64,000 nucleotides of DNA, taken from a virus. Under the pieces are notes generated by a model that saw only the letters and a list, made by a program, of their open reading frames with translations, was not told where the DNA came from and made no database searches. The translations under genes and the position numbers were made by a program. This document shows, one piece after another, positions 6,591 through 10,668 of the stretch (its first letter is position 1; each line of letters starts with the position of its first letter). The stretch covers positions 4,343-68,342 of the IMG/VR virus record IMGVR_UViG_3300047494_000104, one strand, 5' to 3'.

Positions 6591-7583
6591 TCATGCGAAG
6601 AGGTGGCCGTGCTTAATCAGCCATTGGTTGAACGCCTTGCAGTTGGTCATGTCCAAGTTGCGCACCGCCATGTCCTTCACCGAGCACATCTCGAACTCGT
6701 TGGGCATCCGGCTCAGGTATTGGAACACGTTGTCCGCGTTCTTCGGCGTGACGTGCCGGGCGAGCGCCGTGGCGATGGCATACAAGGGCGCTGGATCCGT
6801 CGGCACCTTGGCCGTCATCGGCTTGGCGAGGATCTCGTCCATCGAGGGCAATTCTTGGTAGACCTTGAGGAAGCCATAGAACTCCGGCGCCGCATGAGGC
6901 CCAACGAACCCGTTCACGATCTGAAGGGACGTCTCGTTGTTGTTCTCCTTCATGTCGTGCGACAAAAACTCCCAGGTCCGAGGGCACGCAAACGGCGTGT
7001 TGTCCTTCCACTTCGCAGGATCGAAGTTCATCAGCATGCCCGGCTTGAAGCGCAGGAACGCGACGATCTCCGGAATGATGCGCCCGGTGTTGGCGCCGTA
7101 TTCCTCGAAGTCCTTCTGGCTGACCTCGAGCGTTTGCATGTTGAGGCGACTGACCAATGCGCTCGGCATTTTGTAGCTCACCGCCCGGTCGGACTGACTA
7201 TTGCCGGCCGCCATGACGCTCCATCCCGGAGGGAGCTCGTACTCGCCCAGCTTCCTGTCCAAGGTAATTTGGTACGCGGCCGCCTGCACCGCTGTCGTTG
7301 CGGCCGTGATTTCGTCGAATAAAACGATTCCCGATCCTTCCGTCGGGAAAAAGTCCGGCGTCATCCAGCGCGTCTTGCCCGTCTTCAGGTCCGGCATCGG
7401 AATGCCGCGGAGGTCGACCGGATCGAACATGTTCAGTCTCACATCTCGAAACTGAATGCCGAGCTCATCCGCGGCTTGCCGGATGATTGATGATTTGCCG
7501 ACGCCGGGCGGCGACATCACCATGAACGGCTGTTTCGATCGGTAAAAACGCTTTGCTGCTTTCTTGAGGTCTTTCGGTCCCAT
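6591..7583 (-). CDS. MoxR-like AAA+ ATPase
   Basis: SPPGVGKS, DPVDLRGIP, VLFDE, AAGN, PRTWE. Confidence 0.92.
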   Translation of the reverse strand: MGPKDLKKAAKRFYRSKQPFMVMSPPGVGKSSIIRQAADELGIQFRDVRLNMFDPVDLRGIPMPDLKTGKTRWMTPDFFPTEGSGIVLFDEITAATTAVQAAAYQITLDRKLGEYELPPGWSVMAAGNSQSDRAVSYKMPSALVSRLNMQTLEVSQKDFEEYGANTGRIIPEIVAFLRFKPGMLMNFDPAKWKDNTPFACPRTWEFLSHDMKENNNETSLQIVNGFVGPHAAPEFYGFLKVYQELPSMDEILAKPMTAKVPTDPAPLYAIATALARHVTPKNADNVFQYLSRMPNEFEMCSVKDMAVRNLDMTNCKAFNQWLIKHGHLFA

Positions 7584-7604
7584 ATGCTTCCTTTGGTTTG
7601 TTGT

Positions 7605-8048
7605 TTACTGCCTGATCACTTTGACGATGGCGGCGAGTTCCTCGAGCGCCTCGTACTTGTCTGCCCAGTCCTGGGCCTCCTGCTTCGCGCGGGTTAAAAT
7701 CTGTTTGCGGAGATTCTTATCCGCCAAGGCTCGCGTTGTACTGACGTAGGCGCGTTCCTGTGCATCATCCTCGCCGCCCAACGTCCTCGAACTGACGAAC
7801 ACGACGCTTTGAAAAGCCCTCACCGGCGCGCCTTCCTCGCGAACGATCATCACCGTTCGTATGAGTTGCCGCGCCTGCCATAGGCGATACTCGCTAGCTG
7901 CCTTGCTGTCGTCCCACTGAAAAAACCTGTGAAGCGGCGAATCGACCGGCTTCGCCTCTTTCACCACCGCTTGCGGCGTTAGGGTGCCGTCCCGTTTTTC
8001 TATCTTATCGAAATAGTTTTTGATGATTTCGTCTTTTGTTTTGCTCAT
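7605..8048 (-). CDS. Small protein directly downstream of the pentamer array (candidate accessory subunit)
   Basis: GTLTPQAVVKEAK...SPLHRFFQWDDSKAA..YRLWQARQLIR; start ATG at 8048 after AAAGGA. Confidence 0.8.
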   Translation of the reverse strand: MSKTKDEIIKNYFDKIEKRDGTLTPQAVVKEAKPVDSPLHRFFQWDDSKAASEYRLWQARQLIRTVMIVREEGAPVRAFQSVVFVSSRTLGGEDDAQERAYVSTTRALADKNLRKQILTRAKQEAQDWADKYEALEELAAIVKVIRQ

Positions 8049-8062
8049 ATTTTTGTCCTTTG

Positions 8063-8580
8063 CTGCCATTCCGTTACACTCCATTCCAACGCGGTCCTGT
8101 CCCGGAGCTTCCTTTCCTATCCAATTCTGCCCATGCGCTACAATGCTCTACGGTTCTCGACGTTACTTGCCGTTCCCTTGCTGCCCATGTTCGCCGGTCC
8201 TGTCCGTCCTGTCCCAGGCTCGACCCTCCAGTCCTATGCTGGCTTGCCGTGCCACGGCTCTCCTCGTCATTGCTCTCGCGTCCTGACCGTTCCGGTACTG
8301 CCCGTGCGTGCGATGCCATGCCTTTCCCTAGCTCTGCTCTCCAGTCCTTTACTGCCACTTCCCGACATTGCCCTCCACCCTCTCGATTCCAAGACGGTCG
8401 ATTCCAGTGCTGGCTTTCCGGGCCTTACCTTGCCGCTCACAGCGATTTCCCGCCCCGCCTCTGCTGGCATTCCTTTCCACTGATTCCGGTCCACTTCCCG
8501 CCGGTGCTGTGCTTTCCTTTACTGCCTATCCACTACACGGGTGGCCAATTCATTGCCCACCCATCCCTTTCCCGCCTTTT
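8063..8580 (-). ncRNA. Array of 9 candidate guide RNAs (5-nt period GNA/GNC-NN, each unit ending GGCAG/GCCAG); VIPR-like
   Basis: Unit ends at + strand 8063, 8127, 8181, 8239, 8298, 8352, 8410, 8464, 8522; by hand count 76 of 85 full pentamers start with G and 31 start with GGA. Confidence 0.88.
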
Positions 8581-9290
8581 CAAATTACGCGAAACATGCC
8601 CCACGAGCCGTTGCACTCGGGGCGATATTCAAAGATGCCAACGCCGAAGCCAGCGACGTTGAAGAGGTTGGTGATCTGGCCGGGCGTGATCACCCGCGAG
8701 TTGTACTCGACGAGGAACTTCACCCGCCAGGTCGGGAATTGAGCGCGAAACCGAATGTCGGACGTGCCCATGCCGACGCGGACCATGTCCGAACGCATCG
8801 AAGCGCCGTGCTTGCGCTCGAATTCGATCTCGTTCCAATACTTGGAATCTTCTTCGGTGATCGGCGTTTTGATCTCCGGCACTTCGATCTTGAGCATGTC
8901 GCCCTTGATGTGGAACGCCCGGCGCATCGCCGTCTTCTGGAGTTCGACGTCGTTCGCCGCGGTTACCGCCGCGTTCTTGAGCGACACGGCCGGAATTCCG
9001 AATCCCGATCCGTCCGGAAGACGATAGAGCGACGCCTTAAAGTCCTCCACCGGATTCCGCTTTTCGCGGCCCTTGCTGGCCTCGCCGAGCTGCTTGTCGA
9101 GCATCATCTTCTTGGCCTTTTCGCTCCAGGCGTGTACGACGAGTTGAGACGTTCCCTCGATCGTGACCTGAAAGGTAATCAGGTCAAGGCGGACGTCTTG
9201 GATTTGCAGCATCTCCGCAACGAGCTTTCCGCCTTTCGGCGTCGATCCGTTACGGGTTGCTTTGAGTTTGGGTGCTGATTTGACTGGCAT
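8580..9290 (-). CDS. Stand-alone Cas7/RAMP-like protein (Vipr-like)
   Basis: N-terminal strand VTIEGTSQLVVH, IPAVSLKNA (cf. RAMP IPGSSLKG), C-terminal G-rich loop AGFGVGIFEYRPECNGSWGMF; abuts the array. Confidence 0.8.
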   Translation of the reverse strand: MPVKSAPKLKATRNGSTPKGGKLVAEMLQIQDVRLDLITFQVTIEGTSQLVVHAWSEKAKKMMLDKQLGEASKGREKRNPVEDFKASLYRLPDGSGFGIPAVSLKNAAVTAANDVELQKTAMRRAFHIKGDMLKIEVPEIKTPITEEDSKYWNEIEFERKHGASMRSDMVRVGMGTSDIRFRAQFPTWRVKFLVEYNSRVITPGQITNLFNVAGFGVGIFEYRPECNGSWGMFRVI

Positions 9291-9792
9291 GTTGTTCCTT
9301 TGGTTCTTTGTTAATCACGAATTCGACGAACATCGTCAGCGTCGTGAGCGCGAAGGCGATGCCTAAAGTGTAGATAATGGTGGCGACGAAGCGGTCGGCT
9401 CGATCGTGCGCGCAGAGGTTGGGTTTCTTCATAAAAGTTGGAGTTCGCCGCATGCAATCCGCGCGCGCTGGAGAAGTCGATTGCCGATCGAGTCGACGAC
9501 CTTGGGGCAATAGGTCGGAAGCATCGAGGACGTACAGAGCCGCCAATACGCTCCGACGCGGGTGAAGCATTCGTACTCCAGCTTGCCGTCATCGTCTCGG
9601 AAAGCCTCTGCCCTGAACCACACGCTATCGATCTCGAATTCCTCGCTCGAAATGATGCCGAGGTTCATGCCATTGGCATATTGGAGCTTGGCTTTGCTCA
9701 CTCGCGCCCCCTCGACGAGGGCGCGAGTCCGAGCCATTGCAAGCCGCGCGCATCCAAGCGATTCCCTGCCGAGGGATGCCATTGAGCGGACG

Positions 9793-10668
9793 TCATGCAG
9801 CCTCCGGTATTGGACCGAGCATTTCAAGAATATTCGACGCCCTTTGCAGCGCCTCTTTCCTGGTGAAAACGTCGTCGCGGATTTCGTCGGGACGCAGCTT
9901 TCCGATAGATCCCATAATCTCGCGGCGGACCTGCTCGAGGCGTTGGTCCCCGGTGACATTGAGCGAGGGAATCAAATCGCAAATCTCGCGGATGTTCCCA
10001 ACCAGAGAATCTCGAAATACTGCCGGCTTTCCATCGGATCCCTTCTCGTTCAACTTATTAACGAAGTTTGCCAGCTTCTCGCCGAGCCGGGCGTAGAGCT
10101 CGTTCTCGGCCGCCTTTTCGGCTTCGCTGATGCGCTCACTGATCTCGCGCCGCATGGATTCGATCTCCTGGGCCGGCAGGTCGACGCGAATGTCGCCGCC
10201 GTCGGGAACCGGTGCCCGAATGATGCGAAACGAGAAGTGACTCGCGATCGTGGTCTCATCGGGATAGTCCGCTTCGTTGAACGTGCCGTTGAGATCGATG
10301 CGCGCTTGGCGCAGCTTCTCTGGCCACTTGGCGCAAAACCCGGCGGCCGCTACTTCGCCCTTTTCGATCAGGCCGCGGATGTTCTTCATGTAAACGTCGT
10401 GGTGCTTGCCGGGCAGCATGCGGGCTCCGTCGTCACCCCACGGCACGGTATTTTCGCGGTGGAACGTTCGGATCTCGGAGACGATCTTGTTGACCATCTG
10501 GAGGTCGGGATCTTCCTTCGACACCAAACGCTTCACCACGCGCAGGGCATCGCTCTTGGTCCGGTGATTTTCGCTCACCTCCGTGGTGAGCTTCTTGTCC
10601 GTCTTCGTGCCGGAAAACACGCTGATCTTGAGGTTGACCAGCAAACAGCTATCCGAGATTTTGGGCAT
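9793..10668 (-). CDS. DUF3150-like protein, often near phage MoxR-vWA modules
   Basis: LVNLKIS, TVPWGDDGARMLP, FNEADYP, FRDSLVGN, LNVTGD. Confidence 0.65.
   Translation of the reverse strand: MPKISDSCLLVNLKISVFSGTKTDKKLTTEVSENHRTKSDALRVVKRLVSKEDPDLQMVNKIVSEIRTFHRENTVPWGDDGARMLPGKHHDVYMKNIRGLIEKGEVAAAGFCAKWPEKLRQARIDLNGTFNEADYPDETTIASHFSFRIIRAPVPDGGDIRVDLPAQEIESMRREISERISEAEKAAENELYARLGEKLANFVNKLNEKGSDGKPAVFRDSLVGNIREICDLIPSLNVTGDQRLEQVRREIMGSIGKLRPDEIRDDVFTRKEALQRASNILEMLGPIPEAA

What the first reader, a model, noticed from the sequence alone, without database searches (positions are those of the whole stretch)
8181..8238. Guide 7 spells the JAB/MPN motif YLGEWHTHPE when NN is read as codon positions 1-2
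SEEN: CATA GGACT GGAGG GTCGA GCCTG GGACA GGAC GGACA GGACC GGCGA ACATG GGCAG gives NN = TA CT GG GA TG CA AC CA CC GA TG. As NNx codons this is Y L G D/E C/W H/Q T H/Q P D/E C/W. KNOWLEDGE: (Y)LGEWHTHP is the catalytic motif of prokaryotic JAB peptidases such as CBASS Cap3. INFERENCE: the guide recognises a gapped DNA target (2 matched, 1 skipped) in register with codons, so synonymous wobble changes cannot escape. The target would be a host ubiquitin-like defence gene.
Basis: partly seen in the sequence, partly recalled or inferred. Interest (0 to 1): 0.95.

Follow-up and report, generated by a model that had tools for sequence, protein, structure and literature searches.

The report
Phage VIPR guide aimed at CBASS Cap3
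One guide RNA in this phage's VIPR array (a CRISPR-like DNA silencer described in 2026) spells the catalytic motif of Cap3, a gene of the bacterial CBASS anti-phage system, so the phage may switch off host immunity by RNA guidance, though nobody has tested this.

Summary
Window 8181-8238 (minus strand) is one unit of a 517-nt array with a 5-nt rhythm (8063-8579). The array lies between a Vipr (minimal RAMP) gene and its accessory gene. This is a VIPR system, published in 2026 preprints.

Read by that rule, guide 7 gives Y-L-G-[DE]-[CW]-H-T-H-P-[DE]-[CW].
- The 10-dinucleotide pattern has at least 120 exact matches in species genomes, against about 1 expected. All 120 are in frame in YLG[ED]WHTHP[ED] genes.
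- 106 of 106 examined upstream neighbours are CBASS Cap2 (E1-E2).
- The full 11-dinucleotide pattern matches 4 metagenome contigs, all Cap3 (YLGEWHTHPEC, 22/22).
- Two controls with the dinucleotide order changed gave 1 and 0 viral hits, none in a gene. The true order gave 5 of 5 in Cap3.

Guide 3 of the same array matches the CapV patatin motif DGGxxANNP in the same operon type.

The mechanism is known. The target class, a host or mobile-element CBASS operon, does not occur in the four VIPR texts I searched. This scan has already noted anti-CBASS VIPR guides on other DNA, in at least 13 genomes, mostly against CapV. Cap3 as a followed-up target is new here. There is no expression or binding data, and the host is unknown.

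The parts
8580..9290 (-). vipr: 236-aa minimal RAMP (Cas7-like) protein, P0001
   Evidence: No Pfam hit; PHROG phrog_4652. A profile of 53 homologues hits PDB 36pp_D 'SUSP1 Vipr protein' at E 1.3e-8 over profile positions 15-193 of 203. AlphaFold model pLDDT 81. Best Foldseek PDB matches are subunit chains of type III-A Csm complexes, which I read as Csm3/Cas7 backbone subunits (E 9e-6, prob 1.00, TM 0.44-0.51).
8063..8579 (-). vrRNA array: nine back-to-back units (g1-g9) of 54-64 nt. Each is built of GGxNN pentamers and ends in GGCAG or GCCAG.
   Evidence: 5-nt autocorrelation; pentamer phases and unit sequences. 73 of 80 related loci have a like 5-nt-periodic stretch downstream of their vipr homologue (eight read by eye). 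Five of the eight reader-delimited units (g2-g9) are 54, 59 or 64 nt = 5n-1, which fits the 'staggered, 1-nt overlapping' arrays of the preprint (fig. S18 legend). That fit is my inference. g2, g4 and g7 are 58 nt (two 4-nt steps).
8181..8238 (-). guide 7 (the finding): NN = TA CT GG GA TG CA AC CA CC GA TG, which decodes to YLG[DE][CW]HTHP[DE][CW]
   Evidence: sequence. (natural targets are the Cap3 JAB motif, 20/22 to 22/22). (controls).
8410..8463 (-). guide 3: NN = GA GG GG AT TG GC AA AA CC AA, which decodes to DGG[IM][CW]A[NK][NK]P[NK] (CapV patatin motif)
   Evidence: 8 of 8 exact 9-NN viral hits encode DGGIWANNP. In the 120 loci chosen only by guide 7, 16 sites reach 16/20 or more, against a shuffle mean of 0.67 (maximum 3 in 100 shuffles). 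15 of those 16 are DGG..[AS]NNP.
8522..8579 (-). guide 1: resembles the last 11 codons of the phage's own vipr (17/22) and of a relative's vipr (18/22)
   Evidence: the best hit in the whole window is the vipr 3' end, below the 80% criterion. The L026 vipr 3' end reaches 18/22, while 0 of 100 shuffles reached 18.
7605..8048 (-). vap-like accessory gene, 147 aa (P0002 read from its Met13)
   Evidence: PHROG phrog_15946, no Pfam hit. A homologue lies just downstream of vipr, on the same strand, in 76 of 80 related loci. Model pLDDT 90. No PDB fold match at E<=1e-3; the weak rows are winged-helix DNA binders.

Best explanation
Window 7605-9290 is a phage VIPR system: a vipr gene, a staggered vrRNA array and a vap-like gene. 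Guide 7 is one vrRNA.

By the published mechanism, Vipr protomers polymerise on the RNA, one per pentamer. They bury the GGx bases and present each NN pair. The complex then binds double-stranded DNA in which NN pairs are separated by one skipped base, and it blocks transcription.

Guide 7's eleven NN pairs equal codon positions 1-2 of the JAMM catalytic motif YLGEWHTHPEC of Cap3, the JAB isopeptidase of type II CBASS operons. The guide has the sense of the coding strand. It would therefore pair with the template DNA strand and not with the mRNA.

Most likely the phage uses this guide, together with guide 3 against the CapV phospholipase gene, to silence a CBASS operon in the infected cell. 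The skipped base falls on the wobble position and the site is a catalytic motif. One guide therefore fits Cap3 genes of many bacterial lineages, and synonymous changes cannot escape it.

Shown here: the system's identity, the match, and its specificity for Cap3.
Inferred: expression, processing, binding, silencing and benefit to the phage.
For: System identity:
- Vipr profile hit to SUSP1 Vipr, E 1.3e-8.
- RAMP/Cas7 fold.
- 5-nt periodic array, conserved next to vipr in 73 of 80 relatives.
- vap homologue in 76 of 80 relatives.
- The rule and mechanism come from the preprints.

Target:
- 5 of 5 viral, 120 of 120 genomic and 4 of 4 metagenomic exact pattern matches are in frame in the YLG[ED]WHTHP[ED] motif.
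- 4 contigs match 22/22. This is above the preprint's 80% NN criterion.
- 106 of 106 scanned upstream ORFs are PADLOC CBASS E1-E2.
- L084 is CapV-cyclase-Cap2-Cap3. L082 is Cap2-Cap3-SAVED/HNH. L215 is cyclase-Cap2-Cap3.

Controls:
- Reordered dinucleotides gave 1 and 0 viral hits, none in a gene.
- Backward-pattern controls gave 0 in 4 genomes that each hold a forward match.

Second guide on the same operon type:
- Guide 3 against CapV DGGxxANNP is enriched in loci that were picked only by guide 7.
- A related phage array (L020) carries a unit decoding to DGGLWANNP: 17/18 to guide 3 in guide space, against a shuffle maximum of 15.

No self-target:
- No match within 3 mismatches in the 68-kb virus record.
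- No guide reaches 80% in the window.

Rationale:
- Cap3 is needed for defence against some phages (Jenson 2023, PMC10097602, passages read).
- In at least 18 of the 40 loci that have a same-strand ORF after cap3 (120 loci examined), that ORF is a CBASS effector. A block in cap3 would be polar on it there.
Against: - There is no RNA or binding evidence, and no RNA run is listed for this stretch.
- The host is unknown. I could not show that any cell this phage infects carries such a Cap3.
- cap3 is often the last gene of the operon. A roadblock there leaves cyclase, Cap2 and an upstream effector transcribed. Cap3 inactivation increases cyclase conjugation, so silencing cap3 alone could even strengthen CBASS against some phages.
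- In a random sample of 401 Pseudomonadota genomes, only 5 (including the chosen centre genome) had a match within 1 mismatch. At up to 2 mismatches the counts were 8 forward-pattern genomes against 5 backward-control genomes, so loose matching is no better than noise.
- The unit contains a 4-nt step (GGAC) that the published one-protomer-per-pentamer model does not explain.
- The third repeat base is often A. The SUSP1 Vipr pocket excludes purines.
- Seven of the nine guides (g1, g2, g4, g5, g6, g8, g9) show no enrichment in the CBASS loci, so the array is not purely anti-CBASS.
Confidence: 0.72

Rival explanations
1. Guide 7 is a weapon against rival mobile elements and not against the host as such. 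CBASS operons ride on prophages, satellites and islands. The guide would silence cargo of a competitor, or mark that competitor, as published for VIPR.
For: All published natural targets are competing phages, prophages, satellites or other VIPR systems. 5 matches lie on IMG/VR viral contigs, two of them 60 and 75 kb long with a CBASS operon. Guide 1 resembles vipr genes, a known inter-phage target class.
Against: The matched site is a pan-bacterial catalytic motif and not an element-specific sequence. The 120 genomic matches spread over many phyla. I did not test whether those loci are in mobile elements. Functionally this rival overlaps the main reading, because either way CBASS is silenced.
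Confidence: 0.2
2. The 58-nt unit is two short vrRNAs that meet at the 4-nt step (a staggered boundary), not one 11-pair guide. Only part of the motif would be read by each.
For: Staggered arrays cut at 1-nt overlaps where the pentamer phase slips by one (fig. S18 legend). The unit boundaries in this array show the same slip. Units g2 and g4 also carry an inner 4-nt step.
Against: Read as one guide, all 11 pairs fit natural Cap3 genes with 22 of 22 letters in one unbroken register. Read as two overlapping guides, my count is 20 of 24, and each half has only 5-7 repeats. The preprint reports 9-16 repeats.
Confidence: 0.1
3. The match is a coincidence of a G-rich, low-complexity array with a Gly/Trp/His-rich motif.
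For: Two other guides tried here (g6, g9) gave only chance-like hits.
Against: 20 to 22 specified letters match. There are at least 120 genomic matches against about 1 expected, all in one gene family and one frame. Reordered controls gave 1 and 0. A second guide hits another gene of the same operon type.
Confidence: 0.01

Closest known systems
VIPR systems (Vipr + vap + vrRNA), reference type II system of Escherichia phage SUSP1 and a Pseudomonas fulva prophage (bioRxiv 10.64898/2026.04.26.720920; structures 10.64898/2026.04.26.720927)
   Same: Phage-borne minimal RAMP protein with detectable sequence-profile similarity to SUSP1 Vipr. Adjacent small accessory gene. Guide RNAs made of 5-nt repeats with a GG anchor and two variable bases. 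Targets fit the 1-nt-skip rule with the skip on the wobble base. No self-target.
   Different: The third repeat base is mostly A or C, not a pyrimidine. There is no separate structured 3' tail: units abut and end in GGCAG or GCCAG. The array lies between vipr and vap, whereas in 76 of 80 relatives vap directly follows vipr. The target is a CBASS immune gene, not a phage or satellite gene.
VIPR 'staggered' vrRNA arrays with 1-nt overlapping units (fig. S18 of the same preprint; legend only read, figure not held)
   Same: Back-to-back units, with a one-base slip of the pentamer phase at each boundary (unit lengths 5n-1).
   Different: I could not see the figure or the supplementary data, so the type (I-VII) of this locus is not assigned. 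Three units here also carry an inner 4-nt step.
Class 1 CRISPR backbone (Cas7/Csm3 filaments on crRNA)
   Same: Same fold. One protomer per RNA repeat, and a thumb that breaks the guide-target duplex periodically.
   Different: No CRISPR repeats or spacers, no other cas genes, and a 5-nt rather than 6-nt period. The RNA pairs 2 of every 5 of its bases with 2 of every 3 target bases.
Protein anti-CBASS factors of phages such as Acb1 and Acb2, and the phage-encoded CRISPR-Cas of Vibrio phage ICP1 against the PLE island (both recalled, not read here)
   Same: A phage-borne countermeasure against a host anti-phage system. ICP1 is a precedent for a phage using RNA guidance against a host defence element.
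   Different: Here the proposed action is transcriptional silencing of the CBASS genes themselves by a gapped guide that reads a protein motif. It is not signal degradation or sequestration, nor cleavage of an element-specific sequence.

Membership tests
VIPR system | Vipr protein: a minimal RAMP (RRM core, G-loop, thumb) related to SUSP1 Vipr | tested here: met
   Profile of 53 homologues against PDB: 36pp_D 'SUSP1 Vipr protein', E 1.3e-8, 37.8 bits. Foldseek top hits are subunit chains of type III-A Csm complexes, read here as Csm3/Cas7, E 9e-6. A single-sequence search found nothing.
VIPR system | vrRNA of tandem 5-nt repeats, with a conserved GG(Y) anchor alternating with a variable NN (YNNGG or the related consensus NNNGG) | tested here: met
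   Lag-5 autocorrelation 0.42. Units of 10-13 repeats read. The third base is often A, so the repeat is of the 'related consensus' kind that the preprint allows.
VIPR system | Accessory vap gene next to vipr, predicted to act on DNA | tested here: inconclusive
   A conserved neighbour is present in 76 of 80 related loci. Its fold (pLDDT 90) has no PDB match at E<=1e-3. The weak rows are winged-helix proteins, E 0.5-3.
VIPR system | Natural targets obey the 1-nt-skip rule at 80% NN match or better, gapless, with the skip base mostly on the wobble position | tested here: met
   Guide 7: 22/22 in 4 metagenome contigs and 20-21/22 in 125 further loci, all in frame. Guide 3: 18-19/20 in 8 viral contigs.
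VIPR system | No self-target at 80% or better on the source contig | tested here: met
   The best self hit of any guide is 17/22 (77%): guide 1 on the vipr 3' end. Guide 7 has no match within 3 mismatches in the 68-kb record.
VIPR system | vrRNAs are expressed, processed, bound by Vipr, and bind or silence dsDNA | not testable with these tools
   No RNA run is listed. No promoter-like site was found in 7400-9800 and no terminator-like site on the minus strand (the 2 found are on the + strand), which would fit one transcript with vipr and vap.
Type II CBASS Cap3 (the target gene family) | JAB/MPN isopeptidase with the JAMM motif HxH...S..D, encoded directly after a Cap2 E1-E2 gene in an operon with a CD-NTase and an effector | tested here: met
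   Pfam Prok-JAB and PADLOC JAB for L084, L082, L215 and L216. 106 of 106 upstream ORFs are PADLOC E1-E2. The other 14 of the 120 loci had no upstream ORF of 150 aa or more inside the fetched stretch. Cyclase and patatin or SAVED effectors are seen in L084, L082 and L215.

The most novel reading that the evidence does not exclude
Phage VIPR arrays carry broad-spectrum anti-immunity guides that read protein motifs and not particular genes. Because only codon positions 1-2 are paired, one guide recognises the catalytic-site codons of Cap3 (and another those of CapV) in CBASS operons across bacterial phyla. The phage would then shut down the host's immune operon by RNA-guided transcriptional silencing, an RNA-programmed counter-defence that synonymous mutation cannot escape.
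Probability: 0.45. Interest if true: 0.85.

Novelty: new variant of a known kind. Interest (0 to 1): 0.7.

Why it matters
The published VIPR work presents these systems as weapons between phages, satellites and prophages. The word CBASS occurs in none of the four VIPR-bearing texts held in the library (counts in the listing), and 'anti-defense' does not occur in the two I searched for it.

A guide that fits the Cap3 catalytic motif perfectly, beside one that fits the CapV catalytic motif, suggests a new class of phage counter-defence: RNA-guided silencing of a host immune operon. It also shows what the gapped code buys. A single guide can follow a conserved protein motif through very different genomes.

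The idea is directly testable with a reporter or a CBASS-bearing laboratory strain.

This scan has already noted anti-CBASS VIPR guides in other genomes. The pattern may therefore be general. Cap3 is a new target in that list.

Tried and rejected
- Rfam at gathering thresholds found only a tRNA in the window. Tandem Repeats Finder saw no array here, only a 9-nt doublet.
- A single-sequence PDB search with Vipr or Vap found nothing.
- The full 11-NN pattern had 0 matches in viral contigs.
- Guides 1, 2, 4, 5, 6, 8 and 9 are not enriched in the 120 CBASS loci.
- Eight-NN scans for guides 9 and 6 gave 8 and 16 viral hits. Their flanks match no better than chance and often lie outside ORFs, so their targets stay unknown.
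- No unit resembling guide 7 (JAB motif) was found in the arrays of the 80 related loci. The top strict-period score, 16/20, equals the shuffle maximum. A flexible regex gave 1 hit, which lies upstream of that locus's vipr homologue, so outside an array.
- The AAA ATPase gene next to vap (6591-7583) is not a conserved partner: 1 of 80 loci.
- The promoter and terminator scan gave no promoter-like site and only 2 terminator-like sites, both on the + strand.
- No RNA holder is listed for 7600-9300. The one DNA holder may be the source sample.
- I could not assign the VIPR type (I-VII). Figures and supplementary data S3/S4 of the preprint were not available to me, and they may list defence-gene targets that I could not see.
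- The sample of 401 Pseudomonadota genomes at up to 2 mismatches is no better than its backward control (8 against 5 genomes). Only the matches with 0-1 mismatch are informative.

Full report
WHAT IS THERE

The window is part of a 68,342-base virus record that CheckV rates 77% complete. Three things lie in a row on the minus strand:
- a 236-aa gene (8580-9290);
- a 517-nt stretch with no credible ORF (8063-8579);
- a 147-aa gene (7605-8048).

The middle stretch has a strict 5-nt rhythm. Autocorrelation is 0.425, 0.414 and 0.422 at lags 5, 10 and 15, against 0.18-0.34 at lags 1-15 that are not multiples of 5. No other part of the window comes close: 0.33 here against 0.12 for the next best. Read on the minus strand, it is a chain of GGxNN pentamers, grouped into nine units of 54-64 nt that end in GGCAG or GCCAG.

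WHAT KIND OF SYSTEM IT IS

The 236-aa protein has no Pfam family and belongs to PHROG 4652, function unknown. IMG/VR holds 252 relatives, of which I fetched 80 (39-51% identity over the best tblastn segment).
- In 73 of the 80, a 200-nt window with a strong 5-nt rhythm lies a few hundred bases downstream of the homologue. Eight that I read by eye are long GG(C/T)NN arrays that follow a second small gene; in four of them (L008, L013, L016, L036) I noted by eye a hairpin followed by a T-run after the array.
- That second gene is the homologue of the window's 147-aa gene. It follows the first gene in 76 of 80 loci.

A literature search for these features led to the 2026 preprint on VIPR systems. 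There, a minimal RAMP protein (Vipr), an accessory gene (vap) and vrRNAs of 9-16 YNNGG repeats recognise double-stranded DNA. The NN pairs bind the target, and one target base is skipped between pairs. That base is usually the codon wobble position (10.64898/2026.04.26.720920; Results and two Methods sections read). The structural preprint shows one protomer per repeat and a gapped R-loop triplex (10.64898/2026.04.26.720927; Results part 1 of 2 read).

Membership was tested directly.
- A profile of 53 homologues hits PDB chain 36pp_D, 'SUSP1 Vipr protein', at E 1.3e-8.
- The AlphaFold model (pLDDT 81) finds, as its best PDB folds, subunit chains of type III-A Csm complexes, which I read as Csm3/Cas7 backbone subunits (E 9e-6).

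Local peculiarities:
- The third repeat base is mostly A or C and not a pyrimidine.
- The array sits between vipr and vap, not after vap.
- Units abut with a one-base phase slip, like the 'staggered' arrays in the fig. S18 legend.
- Three units (g2, g4, g7) contain an inner 4-nt step.

GUIDE 7 AND ITS TARGET

Taking the last two letters of each repeat gives TA CT GG GA TG CA AC CA CC GA TG. As codon positions 1-2 this reads Y L G D/E C/W H/Q T H/Q P D/E C/W.

I searched the gapped pattern in three public collections.
- Viral contigs. The 9-pair core gave 5 exact matches. All 5 are in frame in genes encoding YLG[ED]WHTHPE followed by ..PS..D. All 5 also carry the Tyr codon, which was not part of the pattern.
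- One genome per species. All 120 are in frame: YLGEWHTHPE 98, YLGDWHTHPD 16, YLGDWHTHPE 5, YLGEWHTHPD 1. By their record titles they come from many phyla.
- Metagenome contigs. The full 11-pair pattern (22 specified letters) gave 4 matches, all YLGEWHTHPEC (22/22). The terminal GGCAG pair never matches, so it does not seem to be part of the guide.

Controls:
- The same nine dinucleotides in reversed order gave 1 viral match, with stops in all three frames. A permuted order gave 0 matches.
- The backward control built into the genome search gave 0 in four genomes that each hold a forward match.
- In a random sample of 401 Pseudomonadota genomes, only matches with 0-1 mismatch (5 genomes, including the centre genome I chose) stand above the backward control. 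At up to 2 mismatches the counts were 8 against 5 genomes.

The inner 4-nt unit GGAC must be read as GG+AC. Every natural target has ACN (Thr) at that step, and the register runs unbroken across it.

WHAT THE TARGET GENE IS
- L084 is a complete type II CBASS operon: patatin CapV, CD-NTase, Cap2 E1-E2 and Cap3 JAB.
- L082 has Cap2, Cap3 and a SAVED-HNH effector.
- L215, a 22/22 match, has cyclase, Cap2 and Cap3 (Pfam and PADLOC).
- Of the 120 genomic loci, 106 had an ORF of 150 aa or more ending at the JAB gene inside the fetched stretch. All 106 match PADLOC's CBASS E1-E2 models.

The target is therefore Cap3, at its JAMM metal-binding motif.

A SECOND GUIDE ON THE SAME OPERON TYPE

Guide 3 (8410-8463) decodes to DGG[IM][CW]A[NK][NK]P[NK].
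- Its 9-pair core has 8 exact viral matches, all DGGIWANNP.
- In the 120 loci that were picked only by guide 7, it has 16 sites at 16/20 or better, against a shuffle mean of 0.67 (maximum 3 in 100 shuffles). 15 of the 16 are the patatin DGG..[AS]NNP motif of CapV-like genes.
- One related phage array (L020) carries a unit that decodes to DGGLWANNP and also resembles guide 3 in its anchor letters. This guide therefore seems to be inherited and kept.
- The other seven guides show no enrichment in CBASS loci.
- Guide 1 resembles the 3' end of vipr genes: its own at 17/22, a relative's at 18/22. That is a target class described in the third VIPR preprint (abstract read).

HOW IT MOST LIKELY WORKS

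The array is probably transcribed with vipr and vap: no promoter-like site was found in 7400-9800, and the only two terminator-like sites are on the + strand. It would then be cut into units and coated by Vipr. Guide 7 has the sense of the cap3 coding strand, so it would pair with the template DNA strand and cannot pair with the mRNA. This fits the DNA targeting shown for VIPR. Binding would block RNA polymerase in cap3.

The consequence is the weakest step of the argument.
[quoted passage not shown] 2023, PMC10097602, passages read).
- In at least 18 of the 40 loci that have a same-strand ORF after cap3 (out of 120 loci), that ORF is a CBASS effector. A block there would be polar on the effector.
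- In CapV-first operons, guide 3 would be the polar one.

I give 0.72 to the statement as a whole: high for 'VIPR guide matched to Cap3', about even for 'benefits the phage by disabling CBASS'. The main rival is that the CBASS operon belongs to a competing mobile element. It overlaps the main reading in mechanism.

NOVELTY

The system and its code are already known from 2026 preprints. A CBASS target is not in print in the library searched.
- The four texts that mention VIPR contain 'CBASS' zero times (listing).
- 'Anti-defense' is absent from the two I searched for it.
- The fourth text only reports arrays.

Within this scan, follow-up agents have already reported anti-CBASS VIPR guides in other genomes. 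21 findings in at least 13 genomes hold the search words 'VIPR guide CBASS'; the eight listed are mostly against the CapV GTSTGG motif. Two first-reader notes in other genomes mention JAB-motif guides that have not been followed up. This case adds three things: Cap3 as a verified target, perfect 22/22 natural targets, and two guides against two genes of one operon type.

LIMITS
- The host is unknown.
- No RNA data exist for this stretch.
- The wider contigs of the perfect targets could not be read.

Noticed in passing
window 8522-8612 (minus strand): Guide 1's dinucleotides match codon positions 1-2 of the last 11 codons of the phage's own vipr at 17/22. This is the best hit for guide 1 in the whole window, yet below the 80% criterion. 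They match a relative's vipr (L026:3559) at 18/22, and no shuffle reached 18. This looks like a guide against rival VIPR systems that spares its own gene.
   Followed up: partly
window 8410-8463; L020:1933-1981: Guide 3 spells the CapV patatin motif DGG[IM]WANNP. A related phage array carries a look-alike unit spelling DGGLWANNP, with similar anchor letters, so the anti-CapV guide seems to be conserved across diverged VIPR loci.
   Followed up: yes
window 8464-8521, 8352-8409, 8181-8238: Units g2, g4 and g7 are 58 nt long and each holds one inner 4-nt step (CAGT, GGGT, GGAC). In g7 the natural targets run straight through this step. The published one-protomer-per-pentamer model does not say how a 4-nt repeat is accommodated.
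   Followed up: partly
window 8063-8579 versus L001-L080: Here the array lies between vipr and vap. In 76 of 80 relatives vap follows vipr directly and the array comes after vap; in four of the eight loci read by eye (L008, L013, L016, L036) a hairpin followed by a T-run comes after the array. The repeat anchor here is GGA/GGC, whereas in the relatives it is GGC/GGT.
   Followed up: partly
window 6591-7583 (minus strand): A MoxR-like AAA ATPase gene (PHROG 1297) starts 22 nt after vap. A homologue occurs near vipr in only 1 of 80 related loci, so it is probably not part of the system.
   Followed up: yes
window 8063-8180, 8239-8351: Guides 5, 6, 8 and 9 have no identified target. Eight-pair scans for g6 and g9 in viral contigs gave only chance-like hits.
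   Followed up: partly
L087 (genome contigs), downstream of cap3: In one Cap3-bearing locus the next gene is a type I restriction enzyme (PADLOC REase_I, E reported as 0; 1165 bits). These CBASS operons therefore sit in defence islands at least sometimes.
   Followed up: no
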